DNA of 64,000 bases from a virus (IMGVR_UViG_3300046048_000227:37695-101694), one strand, 5' to 3'. Numbered from the stretch's first letter, positions 11,252 to 47,526 are shown. Translations and numbers: made by a program. Notes: generated from the sequence alone by a model not told the origin.

Positions 11252-11324
11252 GCGTTTATAGTGTTTAACGGTAGCATAACTGGCTTCCAACCAGCAGGTG
11301 AGAGTTCGACTCTCTCTAGACGCT
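11252..11324 (+). tRNA. tRNA-Gly (anticodon TCC)
   Basis: Acceptor GCGTTTA/TAGACGC, anticodon arm CTGG-CTTCCAA-CCAG, T arm GAGAG-TTCGACT-CTCTC, U73 discriminator. Confidence 0.85.
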
Positions 11325-11555: not shown

Positions 11556-11629
11556 GGAGGCGTAGTTTAACTGGTCAAAATATTTGGCTTACATCCAAGA
11601 GATGGGGTTCGAGTCCTCCGCCTCTACCA
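11556..11629 (+). tRNA. tRNA-Val (anticodon TAC), atypical 4-bp T stem
   Basis: Acceptor GGAGGCG/CGCCTCT, loop CTTACAT, GTTCGAGTC, encoded ACCA end. Confidence 0.7.
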
Positions 11630-40869: not shown

Positions 40870-41154
40870 TTATTTAGAAAAATCTTGTAACTCTCTTGAT
40901 ACTTTCTTTACCATACGCTCTGCTGAGACCGTAGTAACTGTATCAATTAGTTGATAGATAGCTCTAACTATTGGATCAGCGGTATACCAGACTTTGACAG
41001 TATCACAAGAAGGACACTTAATTGCTAAGTTAACTCCCCTAGTTTGCAAATTGGTAACTTCTTCGCTAACTTCTAATTCTGATCCAAGCACCCTACCAAG
41101 GACAAATCCACAACTTTGGTTTATACAAAACCACCTAGTGTCTCTTCCCTCCAT
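40870..41154 (-). CDS. zinc-ribbon protein (Com-like)
   Basis: CxxxxC...IKCPSC. Confidence 0.55.
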   Translation of the reverse strand: MEGRDTRWFCINQSCGFVLGRVLGSELEVSEEVTNLQTRGVNLAIKCPSCDTVKVWYTADPIVRAIYQLIDTVTTVSAERMVKKVSRELQDFSK

Positions 41155-42754
41155 GATTAACTCCTTTTATTACGTCTAAGATATCATCCATAAACTCCTT
41201 AGCTTCACTAATTTCTGTGAGCGTAAGGGCACGTTCATTAATGTCATCCATAATCTCTTGCGGAATTATGTCTGACTTAAACTCTCTTAAAGGTTTCCCT
41301 TTCCTAATACTATTCACTAAATAAGACCTAGCCTTAAGAATTTCATTACGCCACTTAATGCTTTCATCATCATGGTTATCCCCCCTTGGCGGGTCTTGGT
41401 CATCATTAGTTGGTTCCCCTGTATTTGCTGGTGCATCTGGTTCATCTTCTCTGCCTTCTGGGGGAGAGCCAGTATCTGGATTTTCTAGAGGAGTGTTAGA
41501 AGGAGCATTCATTTGATCAACTTCATCTACAAACATGTCTCCTAGCTCATCTGTACGTTCATCCAAACCACGCTGGTTCCGAATCTCATTAGGAGTAAGG
41601 GTACCAATAGAATAGTACCGCATATCTACAGTAGCTTTTTCTACTTCTGTTAAGAAGTCTGGCATCTTAAATTTAAAGTCCCAACCAGAATAATCAAATT
41701 CTCTAACATGAATTTGATCATAAAATCCTTGCTCAACAAAAGTAAAGATAGGCTCCATAGATGATTCATGAAATTCACGCCTCAGTTCTCTAAGGTTCCC
41801 ACCAGACAAGTCCTCACTAATACCTAGCTTAGCTCCTGGTACACCAGAAACAGCTAAGTTCTCAGTCCTTGTATCTTTCCTAGCTTCTTGGTATGGCAGG
41901 TCTCTAGGAAGTTGTCTCGTTTCTTTAATATCAAGCTCTCCCTGTAGTACAACAGGATTTCTACCAATGTTACTTGGCCCGCTATACTTAGCCTCAATAG
42001 CTCCAACAAGCTCGTCAAAAGCTGTATCACTTATATCATTTGACACAATGTAAAATGCCTCTGGCTTGTTCCTATTCTTAAGATACTCTCTAGCTGCTGT
42101 CTGCAAATAGATATCAAGAGGTAAGGAGTAGTTAACCAACGACCTAATATCTGTACCACCAGTAGAGTACCCTTCCCAATCTGGGTTTACTAAATACACT
42201 ATATCTCTTGGATCATTGTAACTTACAAACTTTCTTCTGTCGTTTAGAGGGAATTGAAAAAAAGCTCCACCTTCTTTAAAGTAACCCATTTCATCAACAT
42301 TAGGAATAACAAATCCATGGAGAAAATCCATGCCTATAGGTCTATCTGCGTTATCTCTAAGTATATGGAAAGCAGCCTGCCCGAAGTAGCGAAGGTACAT
42401 AACAGAAATCATTAACTTATAAGGCATACCGTAATAATCTTTGATATTGTCCCATTCCCTTTTCTTCATGAAGTAAAACTCTTTTAGTTTCCTTCTTTGC
42501 AAGTCTCTAGCTTTTTCCTTATTTTCCTTGTTCTTAACTATATCAAACCATGTGCCTACGGATGTTCTACCAATAACGCTCATAGCTGCACGAGTGTAAC
42601 CATGGGCATTGATAGTATCCATTAAATCCCAAAACAATGTAAAACGATCATCAGTTGTTAGTTCATCATCAACCGTCTTAACTGGTGCCGTATTATTCTG
42701 TAAAACTTTTACGTTACCTGGGGAGTATTCTCTACCAAAACTGTGTACACGCAT
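41135..42754 (-). CDS. portal protein (HK97 family)
   Basis: FGQA, GVPGAKLG, GTLTPNEIR..GL; GGAGG RBS before ATG 42754. Confidence 0.88.
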   Translation of the reverse strand: MRVHSFGREYSPGNVKVLQNNTAPVKTVDDELTTDDRFTLFWDLMDTINAHGYTRAAMSVIGRTSVGTWFDIVKNKENKEKARDLQRRKLKEFYFMKKREWDNIKDYYGMPYKLMISVMYLRYFGQAAFHILRDNADRPIGMDFLHGFVIPNVDEMGYFKEGGAFFQFPLNDRRKFVSYNDPRDIVYLVNPDWEGYSTGGTDIRSLVNYSLPLDIYLQTAAREYLKNRNKPEAFYIVSNDISDTAFDELVGAIEAKYSGPSNIGRNPVVLQGELDIKETRQLPRDLPYQEARKDTRTENLAVSGVPGAKLGISEDLSGGNLRELRREFHESSMEPIFTFVEQGFYDQIHVREFDYSGWDFKFKMPDFLTEVEKATVDMRYYSIGTLTPNEIRNQRGLDERTDELGDMFVDEVDQMNAPSNTPLENPDTGSPPEGREDEPDAPANTGEPTNDDQDPPRGDNHDDESIKWRNEILKARSYLVNSIRKGKPLREFKSDIIPQEIMDDINERALTLTEISEAKEFMDDILDVIKGVNHGGKRH

Positions 42755-42863
42755 TAATATCCTCCGTGATAAGGTATACCTGTCATATTCTACAATCAAA
42801 GTCTTCTATAAAATGCAAAAAGCTGACGGCTAAGCGTCAGCTTCGGCAGATAAACTTACTCTA

Positions 42864-43742
42864 TTATAGTTTTACTAAAATTGGTGGGGCACCTGCTAGG
42901 TAAGACAATCTCTGTCCCTCCTTATCAACAAATACATGTGACCCCGCCGTACTATCAAGGCTAACCCAACCTAAACTTTTAGCTTTTACTTTAAACTCCT
43001 CTAATGTTGTTACACCATCTGGAACTTCGTAGGCATTCTTGTAGTTCTTAGACATAACTTCTTTGCGGTACTTACTTATTACAGCTTCAACTCTGTTTTG
43101 AAGTGCCCAATAATTCCTAAACACTACCCTTGCTCCTCCTATAGCAGTATGTACCTTATCTTCCTCTTCAACATTCAATGCCTGTGAGATAGAGTGACCG
43201 TTGTACCTTCCGCCCTTAGTCTTAAGGGTAGGATCATACTTCATGGCGTGCTTCATAATATCAATAACATCAACAAAGTCATCAAAAGGAAAACCAACAA
43301 ACTGTAAACTATCCCCCATAAAGTGGTTCAAAAACCTAAGATCAAACTTTGGGTTTTGTCCAACACAAAATACTTTAGTACTAGCCAACTTATTTAACTC
43401 TGGGGTATTTAGTTCAAGCAACCAAGTAACTAGTTTGATCTGAGCATCTAATAAAGAAATACCCTCTTTCTCTAAGTAGTCCCAGGTCATGCCGTTAACT
43501 TCTAAAGCTTTTGGACTGGCAACAGCCCACTCTTCTTGAGTAGGCTTAATAACAAGCTCAAGTTCTTTTGTTGGTGCCTTCTCCATACGAACATCATCTA
43601 CTTGTTGCTGGAATATAAATGCAGCAGATAAGATAACAGCACCCTCAGCTTCACTAAGCCCAGATGTTTCTATGTCCAAGTAAATTCTTGGACGTTCCTT
43701 GAAATACTTACTTCTAGTTCTCACTGGATCGGGTTTGAACAT
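42864..43742 (-). CDS. DEDDh 3'-5' exonuclease (DnaQ-like)
   Basis: DIETSG, ALEVNG, GQNPKFD, HTA; the last Asp appears replaced (HTAIGG). Confidence 0.8.
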   Translation of the reverse strand: MFKPDPVRTRSKYFKERPRIYLDIETSGLSEAEGAVILSAAFIFQQQVDDVRMEKAPTKELELVIKPTQEEWAVASPKALEVNGMTWDYLEKEGISLLDAQIKLVTWLLELNTPELNKLASTKVFCVGQNPKFDLRFLNHFMGDSLQFVGFPFDDFVDVIDIMKHAMKYDPTLKTKGGRYNGHSISQALNVEEEDKVHTAIGGARVVFRNYWALQNRVEAVISKYRKEVMSKNYKNAYEVPDGVTTLEEFKVKAKSLGWVSLDSTAGSHVFVDKEGQRLSYLAGAPPILVKL

Positions 43743-43914
43743 TCTCTTCTTCCTTTCGTGCAGCTACTATAGCCGCAGCATGTACCTTGTCCCAATCAAA
43801 GGTATTGTTTTTAGCCCATTCAGCGTACTCGTTTATCACAATATCTACAAAGTCATCAACTGATAGGCTTGCAAGTTTCTCAAACTCTTTAACGTACTTT
43901 TGTACCTTAACCAT
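43714..43914 (-). CDS. hypothetical protein
   Basis: 66 aa, tightly coupled to neighbours. Confidence 0.55.
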   Translation of the reverse strand: MVKVQKYVKEFEKLASLSVDDFVDIVINEYAEWAKNNTFDWDKVHAAAIVAARKEEENVQTRSSEN

Positions 43915-44151
43915 TTAGTACTCCAATAGCTTTACATTACCAGCTACTATAACTAACTTTATGTTCGGTGTATCCTCTAAACCAAGCACATCATATAATA
44001 GCTTGGCAGTCTCATCTGCTTGCTCTTCTTCTCTCACAATAAGAAGGTACCTTTTGTTTTCATCAAGTTCTGAGATTCCATCTTTAATGGCTTGTGAAAG
44101 CATACTCACAATCTCATCTCTCTGGTTTTTAGATAAAAAACTTAGTACCAT
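43915..44151 (-). CDS. hypothetical protein
   Basis: 78 aa, GGAGAGG RBS. Confidence 0.6.
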   Translation of the reverse strand: MVLSFLSKNQRDEIVSMLSQAIKDGISELDENKRYLLIVREEEQADETAKLLYDVLGLEDTPNIKLVIVAGNVKLLEY

Positions 44152-44164
44152 AAACCTCTCCTAG

Positions 44165-44618
44165 TACATCTCTATATAGTAGTACTATATTAAAGCTAAG
44201 TACATTACTTTAGTTTTGTTTGCTCGACCTATTCACAACTTAGCTACACCTCCCCCATACGGTGTAAGCTATTAGCCCTAGCTTACAACATATGAAGGAG
44301 GAGCAGTCACGGTACATGTTTGATCTTGGAGCACCAAGATAGGGAGATTTTGAGCCTAAGAAGACTCCATGATCCCTTTTACACGCTGTATCTGCTTATT
44401 GTCAGGAGCTATGCTCCACTGCCCAGGTAGGTCTTTACCAGCTAGCTTTCGCTATGACAATAACTCCCTTGCTCTCACGAGCAACCTTACGGTGTCCCTA
44501 ATGGGTTCTGGGATTGGGCTAGGACAGTACCTAAGAAGGCGTCCTTCGTCCGCGGACAACAATCGGGGGGTTCCCGATATTAGTCTATGTACTTCACGTT
44601 TCCGCATTCGTGAAGATT
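44165..44618 (-). ncRNA. candidate large structured non-coding RNA or structured 5' leader
   Basis: ORF-free on the transcribed strand, behind a consensus promoter; many stems with GAAA, GUGA and GUAA tetraloops and long-range pairings. Confidence 0.6.
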
Positions 44619-44624
44619 ACAGTT

Positions 44625-44653
44625 ATTATAACACACTACAGTTACAAAGTCAA
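44625..44653 (-). promoter_or_regulatory. strong sigma70-type promoter driving the structured RNA
   Basis: Minus strand TTGACT-17-TATAAT with TG extension, overlapping the terL stop codon. Confidence 0.78.
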
Positions 44654-46534
44654 GGACTTGTCTGCGTGTAAGTACTTAATGGCGTATCTAACAACGTTCT
44701 CTGGGTAAGCTGCTCTAGCTTTAACCAACGTAACGGACAACGGGAATGGGGTTTTCTCTGTGCCTTCTTTGTTATCAATGAACCACTTAAGCTGGTCTAA
44801 AGGTACCTGTGCTAGGAAATAAACTGCACCTGATAAAGCACCCCTAGTAATCCCTTCGTCAACTATTTCGTTTGGATCGTTAAGCGTTGATACTCTCCCT
44901 CCAGCACCTACTACTACAATTTTGTAATCTTTTCCTCTTGCTATTTCTACAGCAGTCATTAAGTACAGTAAAGCATGTGCATAGTGAGACGGTCTTAGTT
45001 CTACCCATACAGGCTCTTCTACAACACCACTAGGTTTCTTTACTTCTCTAAGGTCTCTCTTAATAGCAGTAAGGTGATCAATAATTGTTTCTGTTTCCTG
45101 GGGCAACTCACTAAGACTTCCAGGTAATAGCACACCACCGTCTTTAATTTTTTCCATAAGCCTGTCAAACCCTTCAGACCTGCCTATTAAAACACTGGTA
45201 TTTACTCTTCCGTCTTTCTCTTTCTTCAGTGTCCACTCAATACTACTTTGAGTATAGTCTGCTAACAACAGCTTACCCATAAAATCTTTTTGTAGATTTC
45301 TAGCTGAGTGTCTATTTGGATCAGCGTCTAGTACAGCTTTGTTAACATTAAACAAGCGCATAAGTACGCCTAGCCTATCAAACCCAATCTCGAATGGGAT
45401 AGACTCCATGTGTACAATTCTAGGTATGCTTTCACCCTTCGGTATTTTAGCTATTAAAACTTGCAACTCGTTGCCCTGATCTGCACCCAAATAATAAGTT
45501 GAGTTTCCATCATAGGATTCTTCTAAGGTAACATAGAACTCGCTAGACAATGTGCTAGCTAGAATATCATCTCTAGAAAGAGAGCCGACACCGCTCTCTC
45601 TAGGAACACCTAAGTTTTTCCTATAAAATTCCCGTATCTTAGTTAGTGGGTCACGGTATACAGCGTACAAATGGGGTGCTGTGTGTGTCATCATCTGTGA
45701 GATGCTATAGCCAACCATAGTACTGCTGCGCTCTGGGTATTCTGGTACCCACATACCTTCTTGAATTTGTTCTAAAGTTAGGGGTTTGTCGCAACGAGCA
45801 CAGCCAAAGAACACTTTGGTCGGATTAGCCTCTGGCCCCTTTATACGTAGATTAACTTCCCAATTTAGTACTTGTAGGTGGTTACAAGCAGGGCAGGAGA
45901 CAAACCATTGCCGACGGTCACTAATACTGTACCTAGCATTAATGCCGTAGTTAGCTAGGGTAGGGGTGGAGAACATAAGAGATAGCTTCCAGTCTGAATC
46001 ATCCATTCTGTTCTGCGCTGTAGATACATTATTCATATCAGATAAATCTAACTCATCTATGAATACTACATCAGCAGGCATCATCCTAGGTTCTACTGTT
46101 GATTCCATAAAGAAGAGAAAGGAGTTACCAAATTTTTTAGCTCTGGTAGAGTCAGGAGAACCTAACAATCCTCTCAACCTATCAGAGTTAGAGATCATTG
46201 GGTCTATACGAGTAGTAACAAAGTCTATGTAGTCTTGCTGTCTTGGCAACATGTACATAGCTCTGATTGACCAAAAATCAGCAAAGTGAAATAGCCGCAC
46301 AGCAGCCATAGTTGTCATACCACATTGTGTTGACTTTTGAATAACTAAATTTTTAGCTTCACCCACTGGATTGTTCTCTATCCTGTATGGGTTAACTGAT
46401 TTATATATTTCAGGAGTCCACTTACGTTCAGCAATTTCCCACTTTTTGCTCTCTAGCAAATCAACATAAGAAATACCGTAAGTTAATATATCTCTCCTAG
46501 CTAGCGTCTCTATCTTCTTCTGTTTGTTCATCAA
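44642..46534 (-). CDS. terL: terminase large subunit (lambda GpA-like)
   Basis: QKSTQCGMT Walker A, FIDELD Walker B, STPT, SDRRQWFVSCPACNH, nuclease GADQG. Confidence 0.9.
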   Translation of the reverse strand: MMNKQKKIETLARRDILTYGISYVDLLESKKWEIAERKWTPEIYKSVNPYRIENNPVGEAKNLVIQKSTQCGMTTMAAVRLFHFADFWSIRAMYMLPRQQDYIDFVTTRIDPMISNSDRLRGLLGSPDSTRAKKFGNSFLFFMESTVEPRMMPADVVFIDELDLSDMNNVSTAQNRMDDSDWKLSLMFSTPTLANYGINARYSISDRRQWFVSCPACNHLQVLNWEVNLRIKGPEANPTKVFFGCARCDKPLTLEQIQEGMWVPEYPERSSTMVGYSISQMMTHTAPHLYAVYRDPLTKIREFYRKNLGVPRESGVGSLSRDDILASTLSSEFYVTLEESYDGNSTYYLGADQGNELQVLIAKIPKGESIPRIVHMESIPFEIGFDRLGVLMRLFNVNKAVLDADPNRHSARNLQKDFMGKLLLADYTQSSIEWTLKKEKDGRVNTSVLIGRSEGFDRLMEKIKDGGVLLPGSLSELPQETETIIDHLTAIKRDLREVKKPSGVVEEPVWVELRPSHYAHALLYLMTAVEIARGKDYKIVVVGAGGRVSTLNDPNEIVDEGITRGALSGAVYFLAQVPLDQLKWFIDNKEGTEKTPFPLSVTLVKARAAYPENVVRYAIKYLHADKSLTL

Positions 46535-47294
46535 TACCCTTTATGACCTCTGAGATTGTGCCAGGGGCTAGCATGAATATTGTTTCATACATCTCTGACG
46601 ATAGTTTTTCTTTTATCCTGATATGAATATCAAGTCTTTCAAATCGTTTTCCACAAACATGACAAAGAATACCTTCTTTGTTTTTCTCAAGCACACCAAG
46701 CTCCCCATGGTTAGGGTTTCCCTCTTCATCAAGCAGTGGCCCTTTAGGCTCTTCCTCAATAATTCTAATAGTAGTCTCTATTGCATCGTCCTCGTAGTCT
46801 TTTGCGGTGTCTACTACGTAATCAAGAGCACTCTGCCTAGCTTTAAATAAAGGAGTTTCCTCGCTGATCTTAATATTGATATCAAGTTTGTTTCCGAAGA
46901 ATAGGGATAGTACATAACGAGCGTGCTGTGCTTTTATTCCTAGTAGTTTAGCGTTAACATCTTCGTTGGCAGAAAACACATCAGCAGATGTTTTTAGTGC
47001 CTCTAAAAATTGCTGTTCCATCTGACTCATCCGCCACAGTGACAAATCTTTCCTAGCCAGTGCCACTGCTCTTGTCATGTCAGGATATTTTGTCATATAA
47101 TTTTTAACTGTCTGACGTTTGACGCCTAATTTGTCAGCGATTTTGTATGTCGGATATCCTGCCACTAACATCTCTGCCATTTCTACAATCTTGTTTGGCA
47201 TGTCAGATTCTACTAATGTTTCTGTCAAAGTATTGATTGTTTCTTGCCAAGTTACTGCATCAATCTCTGGGTATTTTACTATCTCGTTTGTCAT
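46497..47294 (-). CDS. putative terminase small subunit (HTH + C-terminal zinc finger)
   Basis: IADKLGVKRQTV HTH; CHVCGK..L..H; directly upstream of terL. Confidence 0.55.
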   Translation of the reverse strand: MTNEIVKYPEIDAVTWQETINTLTETLVESDMPNKIVEMAEMLVAGYPTYKIADKLGVKRQTVKNYMTKYPDMTRAVALARKDLSLWRMSQMEQQFLEALKTSADVFSANEDVNAKLLGIKAQHARYVLSLFFGNKLDINIKISEETPLFKARQSALDYVVDTAKDYEDDAIETTIRIIEEEPKGPLLDEEGNPNHGELGVLEKNKEGILCHVCGKRFERLDIHIRIKEKLSSEMYETIFMLAPGTISEVIKGIDEQTEEDRDAS

Positions 47295-47295
47295 G

Positions 47296-47526
47296 TTAGT
47301 ACTCCAGGCTATCAGTGTCACGTTCAAGATCGGTTAATGGCACTTCGTTATTTGTTACTCTAGTATCTTGTCTGCGCTCTCTTTGTTCTGCATTCCACAA
47401 GTATCTTAACCAGTTGGGCCAATCTCTCGAACTTCTCCCATATATTTTTTCGCAGCTAGAACAAATTGCAAATCTCCACGTTATTCGTCTCCCACAACCA
47501 GTTAAGCATTCATGGTATCTGGACAT
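47296..47526 (-). CDS. small Cys-rich protein
   Basis: CxxGC...CSSC. Confidence 0.5.
   Translation of the reverse strand: MSRYHECLTGCGRRITWRFAICSSCEKIYGRSSRDWPNWLRYLWNAEQRERRQDTRVTNNEVPLTDLERDTDSLEY

What the first reader, a model, noticed from the sequence alone, without database searches (positions are those of the whole stretch)
44165..44653. Independently promoted ~450-nt highly structured RNA between terminase and portal
Seen: the largest non-coding gap in this dense phage lies behind its own consensus promoter (TTGACT-17-TATAAT, minus strand, start near 44618). Read on the minus strand it is packed with helices: CUUCACG/CGUGAAG, AUCGGG/CCCGAU, ACC-GUAA-GGU, UUGCUC-GUGA-GAGCAA, AUCUUGG/CCAAGAU and UGUAAGCUA/UAGCUUACA. 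A 9-bp UUAUUGUCA/UGACAAUAA helix (44463-44455 with 44404-44396) closes a multibranch domain containing UAGC-GAAA-GCUA and GGAGC/GCUCC. A long-range GUACAU/AUGUAC pair could close most of the molecule. The three tetraloops are GNRA only on the promoter-driven strand. The loop GGGCUA is complementary to a distant UAGCCC (possible pseudoknot), and GUCCGCGGAC (44548-44557) is self-complementary (possible dimerisation). Established: GNRA loops and multibranch junctions mark folded RNAs. I do not recognise it as tmRNA, RNase P RNA, SRP RNA or an intron. Inference: an undescribed large phage ncRNA, ribozyme or leader, co-transcribed with two small ORFs and a DEDDh nuclease inside the packaging module. 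It could act in packaging (a pRNA analogue) or in an RNP with those proteins.
Basis: partly seen in the sequence, partly recalled or inferred. Interest (0 to 1): 0.85.

Follow-up and report, generated by a model that had tools for sequence, protein, structure and literature searches.

The report
Enlarged EGFOA-type phage RNA gene
The gene-free stretch between the terminase and portal genes is a real, promoter-driven, roughly 390-base folded RNA. Its core belongs to EGFOA, a catalogued phage RNA family of unknown function, so it is an enlarged variant of a known orphan RNA and not a new class.

Summary
Window 44152-44641 has no conserved ORF. It lies behind a near-consensus sigma-70 promoter (TTGACT-17-TATAAT, extended -10) that overlaps the terminase stop codon. 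On the minus strand it folds better than shuffled controls (z = -5.0).

It is not an undescribed RNA. Window 44396-44517 (minus) matches Rfam EGFOA (RF02955) at 36.9 bits, against a cut-off of 37.7 (E 8.4e-5). Phages with a related terminase carry EGFOA above the cut-off (37.8-49 bits) in the same slot, including one on a Chloroflexia MAG contig.

The native RNA is about 3.5 times longer than the 108-position Rfam model. It has four parts:
- a lineage-specific 5' domain;
- the pseudoknotted core;
- a two-hairpin middle domain;
- a conserved C-run/G-run terminal hairpin.

The evidence for structure is compensatory change: against a 60%-TerL relative, across 13 family members, and in a ~95% identical marine-sediment variant.

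Clear EGFOA copies in other phages lie next to replication or lysis genes, sometimes before convergent genes. Relatives that lack EGFOA carry tRNA arrays in this slot. A packaging (pRNA-like) role is therefore not supported. The most likely reading is a stable, trans-acting, self-assembling RNA. Function is unknown.

This scan has already reported enlarged EGFOA-type RNAs on other DNA, one in the same terminase-portal arrangement.

The parts
44625..44653 (-). Sigma-70-type promoter: -35 TTGACT (44653-44648), 17-nt spacer holding the TerL stop codon, TG-extended -10 TATAAT (44630-44625). Start expected near 44618.
   Evidence: 11 of 12 matches, TG present. A TTGACN-16/18-TATAAT site at the TerL stop recurs in most related loci.
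44231..44618 (-). Body of the structured RNA, about 390 nt. The 5' end is inferred from the promoter. The 3' limit is inferred from where conservation ends in a ~95% identical sediment variant.
   Evidence: The X3 contig aligns to 44231-44635 with 20 differences, and its flanks are diverged or cannot be aligned.
44516..44615 (-). Lineage-specific 5' domain: hairpin CUUCACG/CGUGAAG (44592-44615), hairpin AUCGGG/CCCGAU (44562-44578), palindrome GUCCGCGGAC (44548-44557), hairpin GGAC/GUCC (44522-44544), UAGCCC (44516-44521).
   Evidence: It cannot be aligned with L122 but is kept in the X3 variant.
44396..44517 (-). EGFOA-type core: Rfam RF02955 match over model positions 1-108.
   Evidence: 36.9 bits, cut-off 37.7, E 8.4e-5. 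E 1.7e-6 for the whole phage record, only one hit.
44508..44512 (-). 5' strand of the pseudoknot (CCCAG). It pairs with CUGGG (44422-44426) in the P4 loop.
   Evidence: CCCAG/CUGGG in 11 loci, UCCAG/CUGGA in L122, L128 and L130, and U.G in L168.
44469..44484 (-). P1 hairpin UUGCUC-GUGA-GAGCAA. It is part of the Rfam consensus but absent from most TerL-linked relatives.
44455..44463 (-). P2 closing helix, 5' strand UUAUUGUCA. It pairs with UGACAAUAA (44396-44404).
   Evidence: all 8 P2 pairs show changes on both sides across the family. U44463-A44396 becomes C-G in the X3 variant.
44396..44404 (-). P2 closing helix, 3' strand.
   Evidence: As for the 5' strand.
44443..44454 (-). P3 hairpin UAGC-GAAA-GCUA. 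Its length varies across the family.
44418..44442 (-). P4 hairpin carrying the family's most conserved loop, GGUAAAG....CCUGGGC.
   Evidence: Helix 3: 100% of cells paired, 4 of 5 pairs with changes on both sides.
44405..44417 (-). P5 hairpin GGAGC-AUA-GCUCC. It is an optional insert, often with a GNRA loop in relatives.
   Evidence: In the X3 variant it is remodelled to GGAG-GCAA-CUCC.
44314..44386 (-). Middle domain: helix GCGUGU/ACAUGU (44381-44386 with 44314-44319) enclosing hairpins 44342-44376 and 44323-44340. It is preceded by a junction motif (GAURC...AAAGGG) shared with several relatives.
   Evidence: compensatory changes against L122, none broken; sequences.
44249..44303 (-). Terminal hairpin with a conserved C-run/G-run base (CUCCUCC...GGGGGAGG). 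It is a candidate 3'-end or stability element. No U-tract follows it.
   Evidence: The same kind of hairpin follows clear EGFOA cores in unrelated contigs. No intrinsic terminator was called.
44152..44248 (-). AU-rich, GTAC-rich spacer before the next gene. It is not conserved in the X3 variant.
43915..44151 (-). Conserved 78-aa protein of unknown fold (ELDPxKxYILVVP...VKLLEL family). It follows the RNA in nearly all related loci.

Best explanation
This is the phage's copy of an enlarged EGFOA-class structured non-coding RNA gene.

How it is made (inferred). Host RNA polymerase starts at a near-consensus, TG-extended sigma-70 promoter that overlaps the terminase stop codon. It makes an RNA of about 370-390 nt.

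How it folds (shown by comparison). The RNA has four parts:
- a lineage-specific 5' domain;
- the EGFOA core, in which helix P2 closes a junction holding P3, P4 and an optional P5, a 5' CCCAG pairs with CUGGG in the invariant GGUAAAG...CCUGGGC loop to form a pseudoknot, and there is a P1 hairpin beside the CCGU motif;
- a two-hairpin middle domain;
- a terminal hairpin with a conserved C-run/G-run base.

How it acts (inferred). The terminal hairpin probably defines or protects the 3' end of a discrete, stable RNA. That RNA acts in trans and probably as a homo-oligomer, as shown by cryo-EM for two core-only EGFOA RNAs in a preprint. It would serve as a scaffold or decoy for an unidentified host or phage factor. 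No intrinsic terminator follows, so the same promoter probably also reads through into ORF78, the exonuclease and the portal gene.

My odds: EGFOA-type RNA gene 0.9; discrete trans-acting RNA rather than a pure leader about 0.55.
For: Identity:
- RF02955 hit at 36.9 bits, E 8.4e-5, minus strand only. It is the only hit in the 101.7-kb record.
- The same slot just downstream of TerL holds EGFOA above the cut-off in L124 (49.0), L136 (42.9), L138 (40.8), L140 (38.5) and L132 (37.8), and on a Chloroflexia MAG contig (41.7).

Structure:
- Against L122 (TerL 60% identical): 75 consensus pairs, 18 with both sides changed, none broken.
- Family alignment A11: 94% of cells paired against 78.6% in shuffles (0 of 500 reach it); 12 of 17 pairs with changes on both sides; slid controls 33-46%.
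- The pseudoknot covaries.
- A marine-sediment contig keeps the RNA at ~95% identity while its flanks diverge. Its changes are one compensatory pair in P2, two G-C to G-U changes, seven at unpaired positions, one broken loop-closing pair, and a P5 remodelled to a GNRA hairpin.

Discrete RNA rather than leader:
- EGFOA in L032 (44.7 bits) and L082 (44.2 bits) is followed by convergent genes.
- L128 and L130 place a tRNA gene and a second promoter in front of the RNA.
- TerL relatives without EGFOA carry 5-12 tRNA genes in this slot.
- Conservation in the X3 variant stops about 80 nt before the next start codon.
- A C-run/G-run hairpin follows the core in the TerL clade and in three of four unrelated EGFOA loci.

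Oligomerisation: trimer, hexamer and strand-swapped dimer of EGFOA RNAs in bioRxiv 10.64898/2026.07.01.735769.
Against: - The Rfam score is 0.8 bits below the curated cut-off.
- My own covariance models (R1, R2) recover the window only locally.
- The terminal hairpin has no U-tract, and no terminator-like site lies between the RNA and ORF78. A discrete 3' end is therefore unproven, and the RNA may exist mainly as a 5' leader.
- The 5' domain has support from one near-identical variant only.
- Oligomerisation has been shown only for other, core-only members and only in a preprint.
- Nothing here shows what the RNA binds or does.
Confidence: 0.6

Rival explanations
1. Cis-acting leader of the head-morphogenesis operon. 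The promoter-proximal RNA would modify RNA polymerase (processive antitermination, as HK022 put or EAR RNAs do), or stabilise or regulate the mRNA for ORF78, the exonuclease, the portal and the head genes.
For: - There is no terminator between the RNA and ORF78, and no other promoter-like site before ORF78 on that strand.
- The order promoter, RNA, ORF78-family gene is conserved across the TerL clade.
- In L083 a 72-bit EGFOA also lies upstream of same-strand genes, including DNA polymerase.
Against: - EGFOA in L032 and L082 is followed by convergent genes.
- The promoter is kept in relatives that have no EGFOA (L003, L004, L171).
- Relatives without EGFOA have tRNA arrays downstream, so stable RNAs occupy this slot.
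- Conservation ends about 80 nt before the start codon.
- No put, EAR or other cis-regulatory Rfam model matched.
Confidence: 0.22
2. Packaging or head-assembly cofactor. An oligomeric RNA would dock on the portal or terminase (a phi29 pRNA analogue), or form an RNP with ORF78, ORF66 or the exonuclease.
For: - The position between TerL and the portal is conserved in this clade.
- EGFOA RNAs self-assemble into trimers and hexamers.
- An unexplained small protein is always next to the RNA.
Against: - The best-scoring EGFOA copies lie beside DNA polymerase or lysis genes in other phages, with no TerL or portal homologue nearby.
- No match to the pRNA model or to any other family.
- From established knowledge, phages with a canonical two-domain TerL and a portal package DNA without an RNA. 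This phage has GpA-type TerL.
- TerL relatives that lack EGFOA keep the same packaging genes.
Confidence: 0.05
3. Ligand-sensing or self-cleaving RNA: a riboswitch or ribozyme of an undescribed class built on the EGFOA core.
For: The core has an intricate pseudoknot with invariant unpaired nucleotides (GGUAAAG, CCGU, CCUGGGC), as aptamers and ribozymes do.
Against: - No riboswitch or ribozyme family matched.
- The gene context varies between phages, so no common regulated gene exists.
- Solved EGFOA structures were described as oligomeric assemblies, with no ligand or cleavage reported.
Confidence: 0.05
4. Not an RNA at all: a protein-coding stretch (the 100-aa antisense ORF or the 51-aa sense ORF), or a DNA-level element such as a pac/cos site or an origin next to the terminase gene.
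For: - ORFs of 100 aa (plus strand) and 51 aa (minus strand) exist.
- Packaging sites often lie near terminase genes (established knowledge).
Against: - The ORFs have no Pfam match and are not kept in L122.
- Substitutions preserve base pairs, including G-U pairs that work on one strand only.
- The covariance-model hit is strand-specific.
- The record's terminal repeats lie elsewhere.
Confidence: 0.02

Closest known systems
EGFOA RNA motif (Rfam RF02955). The cryo-EM preprint 10.64898/2026.07.01.735769 describes it as putative small RNAs in unusually large gene-free regions, citing its reference 41, which I take from memory to be Weinberg et al. 2017 (PMC5737381); EGFOA does not occur in that paper's main text and its supplements were not held.
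   Same: - The P2-closed junction and the P4 hairpin with the GGUAAAG...CCUGGGC loop.
- The 5' CCCAG, the CCGU motif and the P1 hairpin with a GNRA loop.
- Minus-strand full-length model match (1-108) at 36.9 bits.
- Orthologous position to above-threshold members.
   Different: - The score is 0.8 bits below the cut-off.
- CCGUAAGG replaces the consensus CCGUCCU.
- There is an extra P5 hairpin.
- The native RNA is about 390 nt, not 108. It has a 5' domain, a middle domain and a conserved terminal hairpin that the Rfam model does not cover.
- Its promoter and its terminase-portal slot are defined here.
GOLLD and ROOL large ornate RNAs (described in PMC5737381 as often near tRNAs and in prophages)
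   Same: - A large, multi-domain, phage-borne RNA of unknown function.
- It shares a slot with tRNA genes in relatives.
- It belongs to a family that self-assembles.
   Different: No sequence or structure match to either model at E <= 10. It is smaller, and its core is different.
phi29 packaging RNA (pRNA)
   Same: A phage-encoded, oligomerising structured RNA. In this clade it is encoded inside the packaging module.
   Different: - No model match.
- This phage has a canonical GpA-type TerL and a portal, not the phi29 system.
- Family members elsewhere are not linked to packaging genes.
HK022 put and EAR processive-antitermination RNAs
   Same: A promoter-proximal structured RNA ahead of a long operon, with no terminator in between.
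   Different: - No model match.
- It is several times larger.
- Some family members are followed by convergent genes.

Membership tests
EGFOA (Rfam RF02955) | Covariance-model score at or above the curated gathering cut-off (37.7 bits) | tested here: not met
   36.9 bits, E 8.4e-5 over 1.2 kb; E 1.7e-6 over the whole record. It misses by 0.8 bits.
EGFOA (Rfam RF02955) | P2 helix closing the junction, with covariation | tested here: met
   UUAUUGUCA/UGACAAUAA, 9 bp. All 8 modelled P2 pairs covary in A11. U-A becomes C-G in the X3 variant.
EGFOA (Rfam RF02955) | P4 hairpin with the conserved loop GGUAAAG..AGACCUGGGC | tested here: met
   GCUGGUAAAGACCUACCUGGGCAGU at 44418-44442. The P4 helix is 100% paired across 13 sequences.
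EGFOA (Rfam RF02955) | 5' CCCAG complementary to CUGGG of the P4 loop (pseudoknot) | tested here: met
   44508-44512 with 44422-44426. C-G changes to U-A together in L122, L128 and L130.
EGFOA (Rfam RF02955) | Conserved CCGUCCU motif followed by a small hairpin and GG | tested here: inconclusive
   The window has CCGUAAGG and then the P1 hairpin UUGCUC-GUGA-GAGCAA and GGG. The CCGU is kept but the CCU is not.
EGFOA (Rfam RF02955) | Orthology: the same genomic slot as clear members in related genomes | tested here: met
   Five IMG/VR relatives and one Chloroflexia MAG contig carry above-threshold EGFOA a few hundred nt downstream of the homologous TerL.
EGFOA (Rfam RF02955) | Homo-oligomerisation (trimer or dimer seen by cryo-EM) | not testable with these tools
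   Known only from the preprint, for two other members.
phi29-type pRNA | Match to the pRNA family, and a phi29-type packaging system | tested here: not met
   No Rfam match at E <= 10 other than EGFOA and chance miRNA hits. The phage has GpA-type TerL and a Phage_portal protein.
GOLLD / ROOL | Match to the family covariance models | tested here: not met
   All 4227 Rfam models were scanned over 43800-45000 with permissive filters. Neither was reported.
Group I / II introns, RNase P, tmRNA, SRP | Match to the family covariance models | tested here: not met
   No such hit in this region. TerL is full length against its homologues, so no gene is interrupted.

The most novel reading that the evidence does not exclude
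In this phage clade the oligomeric EGFOA-type RNA is a head-assembly or DNA-packaging cofactor. It would be a pRNA-like ring or scaffold that docks on the portal, the terminase or the conserved 78-aa protein, in a phage that uses a canonical terminase.
Probability: 0.05. Interest if true: 0.9.

Novelty: new variant of a known kind. Interest (0 to 1): 0.45.

Why it matters
EGFOA is an orphan RNA. It has a curated model and, according to a 2026 preprint, cryo-EM structures, but no known biology. This locus and its relatives add four things.

- They give it a defined transcription unit: a consensus host-type promoter.
- They point to possible hosts (contigs of MAGs labelled Chloroflexia and Anaerolineales).
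- They place it in a phage clade where it shares a 'stable RNA slot' with tRNA genes, as GOLLD and ROOL do.
- They show that the 108-nt motif is only about a third or less of the conserved native RNA. A middle domain (in part of the clade) and a C-run/G-run terminal hairpin lie outside the Rfam model. If the constructs solved by cryo-EM match the Rfam motif, as the preprint's 'under 200 nucleotides' suggests, they would lack these parts; I did not check the constructs.

This matters for interpreting the oligomeric structures and for designing functional tests.

Tried and rejected
- INPHARED phage search with the 601-nt region (blastn, distant mode): no match.
TerL homologues could therefore not be traced to their contigs; I used the search for related loci instead.
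- The 14-base pattern scan of viral contigs gave mostly chance hits. Only six of its loci hold EGFOA-type RNA (L035, which is the contig of L135, and L006, L032, L051, L082 and L083).
- nhmmer and blastn with the window RNA found only L122/L139 (and L179, which is identical).
- Model R1 (window + L122) found distant relatives only through the P4 hairpin. Model R2 (four typical members) aligned nine loci globally but the window only locally at 14 bits. The window is therefore tied to the family by the Rfam model and by synteny, not by my own models.
- MAFFT alignments A3, A8 and A9 misalign the P2 3' strand and were not used for pair counts.
- Sequencing runs: no RNA holder was listed, so expression could not be examined.
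- Structure of the 78-aa neighbour: AlphaFold2 mean pLDDT 74, with no Foldseek match at E <= 0.001 in PDB or BFVD.
- GTAC clustering in the spacer is not unusual for this genome.
- RF02956 and RF02957 were tried as possible EGFOA-associated motifs. They are unrelated families (DUF2693, EFASI) and gave no hit.
- The supplements of PMC5737381 are not held. The original description of EGFOA and of any 'EGFOA-associated' motifs could not be read, so I cannot say whether the middle domain or the terminal hairpin were described there.

Full report
**Setting.** The window is bases 37695-101694 of a 101,694-bp IMG/VR phage record with direct terminal repeats. Around the finding, every gene lies on the minus strand:
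- an HTH protein that may be the small terminase subunit (46497-47327);
- a GpA-type large terminase, TerL (44642-46534; PF05876 E 5e-25, phrog_675 E 6e-80);
- the gap;
- two small ORFs (43915-44151 and 43714-43914);
- an exonuclease (42864-43742; phrog_192);
- the portal (41135-42799; PF04860).

The DNA comes from a sediment metagenome.

**Observation.** The gap is real.
- The only sizeable ORF in it is antisense (44369-44671, 100 aa). It has no Pfam match and no counterpart in the nearest relative.
- A TG-extended TTGACT-17-TATAAT promoter lies at 44653-44625, and the TerL stop codon is in its spacer.
- The minus strand folds to -165.1 kcal/mol, z = -5.0 against dinucleotide shuffles. The plus strand gives z = -3.3.

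**Identity.**
- Rfam at gathering thresholds reports only two tRNAs in the window.
- With permissive thresholds, 44396-44517 (minus) matches EGFOA (RF02955) end to end at 36.9 bits. The cut-off is 37.7 and E is 8.4e-5. The next hits are chance miRNA matches.
- It is the only EGFOA hit in the phage.

**Relatives.**
- TerL has over 100 homologues at 36-63% identity.
- Loci fetched with a TerL alignment show EGFOA above the cut-off a few hundred nt downstream of TerL in L124 (49.0 bits), L136 (42.9), L138 (40.8), L140 (38.5) and L132 (37.8). Sub-threshold matches occur in L141, L135, L129 and L122.
- A 255,880-bp contig of a Chloroflexia MAG has it at 41.7 bits. IMG/VR classes three relatives as proviruses. 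This may be an integrated prophage, which would mean that at least part of the clade is temperate and may infect Chloroflexota; I did not check for bacterial genes flanking the element.
- The window's core is therefore an orthologue of clear EGFOA RNAs, although its own score is borderline.

**Structure support.**
1. L122 (TerL 60% identical; L139 and L179 are identical copies) has a homologous RNA (nhmmer E 7.5e-20). The two-sequence consensus has 75 pairs, 18 with both sides changed and none broken.
2. A model built from four typical members aligned 13 loci. 94% of cells are paired against 78.6% in shuffles (0 of 500 reach it). 12 of 17 pairs change on both sides. Slid controls give 33-46%. 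P2 has a different sequence in almost every locus.
3. The 5' YCCAGA and the P4 loop covary: CCCAG/CUGGG in 11 loci, UCCAG/CUGGA in L122, L128 and L130, and U.G in L168. This supports a pseudoknot.
4. A 652-nt contig from a marine-sediment run of another study aligns to 44231-44635 at about 95% identity. The TerL end next to it is diverged, and the spacer beyond 44231 cannot be aligned. Its listed changes are:
   - U44463-A44396 to C-G in P2;
   - two G-C to G-U changes;
   - seven at unpaired positions;
   - one broken loop-closing pair;
   - P5 remodelled from GGAGC-AUA-GCUCC to GGAG-GCAA-CUCC.

   This also sets the conserved block at roughly 44231-44635.

**Architecture beyond the Rfam motif.**
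- Upstream of the core lies a ~100-nt domain specific to the window's lineage.
- Downstream lies a helix-closed pair of hairpins (44314-44386), preceded by a junction motif (GAURC...AAAGGG) that L122, L132, L141, L135 and L155 share.
- Then comes a terminal hairpin (44249-44303). Its base is a conserved C-run/G-run (…CUCCCCCC / GGGGGGAGU…) and its distal stem varies freely. It is present in most TerL-clade loci.
- The same kind of hairpin follows clear EGFOA cores in three of four unrelated contigs (L051, L083, L082; L032 has a different GC-rich hairpin there).
- The native RNA is thus about 390 nt, against 108 model positions.

**Function.** No intrinsic terminator or further promoter-like site lies between the RNA and ORF78, so read-through into the head genes is likely. 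Three findings argue that the RNA is more than a leader and is not tied to packaging.
1. EGFOA copies above the cut-off in unrelated phage contigs have no TerL or portal homologue nearby:
   - L083 (72.2 bits) lies upstream of DNA polymerase;
   - L051 (73.6 bits) lies after endolysin-like genes;
   - L032 (44.7 bits) and L082 (44.2 bits) lie before convergent genes.
2. L128 and L130 insert a tRNA gene and a second promoter before the RNA. TerL relatives without EGFOA carry 5-12 tRNA genes in this slot. The TerL-portal slot therefore acts as a stable-RNA island behind a conserved promoter, and that promoter is kept even where EGFOA is absent.
3. A preprint reports that EGFOA RNAs form trimers, hexamers or strand-swapped dimers on their own.

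I therefore favour a discrete, stable, self-assembling trans-acting RNA whose target is unknown. The terminal hairpin would act as a 3'-end or stability element, and the promoter would also drive the downstream genes. A cis-acting leader role (antitermination or mRNA stabilisation) is the main rival. A pRNA-like role has no support beyond position.

**Neighbours.** A ~75-aa protein family (ELDPxKxYILVVP...VKLLEL) follows the RNA in nearly all clade members. Its model (pLDDT 74, alpha-beta-alpha-beta) matches no known fold. Whether it binds the RNA is open.

**Earlier notes of this scan.** They list at least 20 genomes with enlarged EGFOA-type phage RNAs. One (e1-5994565) has the same promoter-in-terL, terminase-portal arrangement. 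My own tests reach the same reading, so the class is no longer new to the scan.

**Verdict.** This is a real RNA gene, a new enlarged variant of a known orphan family. It is of moderate interest because it supplies context, extent and possible hosts for EGFOA.

Noticed in passing
L133, L134, L137, L160, L167, L157 (downstream of TerL, + strand): TerL relatives without an EGFOA match carry arrays of up to about 12 tRNA genes (one in the short L157 fragment) on the same strand, after the ORF78-like gene. The TerL-portal slot looks like a stable-RNA island.
   Followed up: partly
L128:5280-5360 and L130:5175-5260 (approx.): A tRNA gene and a second TTGACA-17-TATxxT promoter lie between the TerL stop and the EGFOA-type RNA.
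   Followed up: partly
window 43915-44151 (-): A 78-aa protein belongs to a conserved family (ELDPxKxYILVVP...VKLLEL) that always lies next to the RNA in this clade. It has no Pfam or PHROG match and no fold match.
   Followed up: yes
L156:5342-5832: The closest metagenome relative by TerL (58% identity) has a ~490-nt gap with a promoter-like site and a G-run hairpin. No EGFOA P4 motif was found and neither of my models hit it. The slot may hold a different or very divergent RNA.
   Followed up: partly
L083 (oriented: 1-1268) and L051:6350-7174: High-scoring EGFOA cores (72-74 bits) lie 490-560 nt downstream of consensus-like promoters, inside gene-free regions of over 1 kb. Those RNAs may be much longer than the motif too.
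   Followed up: partly
window 44636-44794: In a marine-sediment relative, the 3' end of the terminase gene is far more diverged (under 80% to 87.5% identity) than the adjacent RNA (~95%). This points either to stronger constraint on the RNA or to a mosaic junction at its 5' edge.
   Followed up: no
window 11252-11324 and 11556-11626 (+): Two tRNA genes (Rfam 53 and 59 bits). Earlier notes of this scan list a tRNA island, a tmRNA and further ornate RNA candidates elsewhere in this phage.
   Followed up: no
window 44165-44210 (-): Three GTACT repeats lie in the AU-rich spacer before ORF78, and similar GTAC clusters occur in L122. GTAC is common throughout this genome, so this may mean nothing.
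   Followed up: partly
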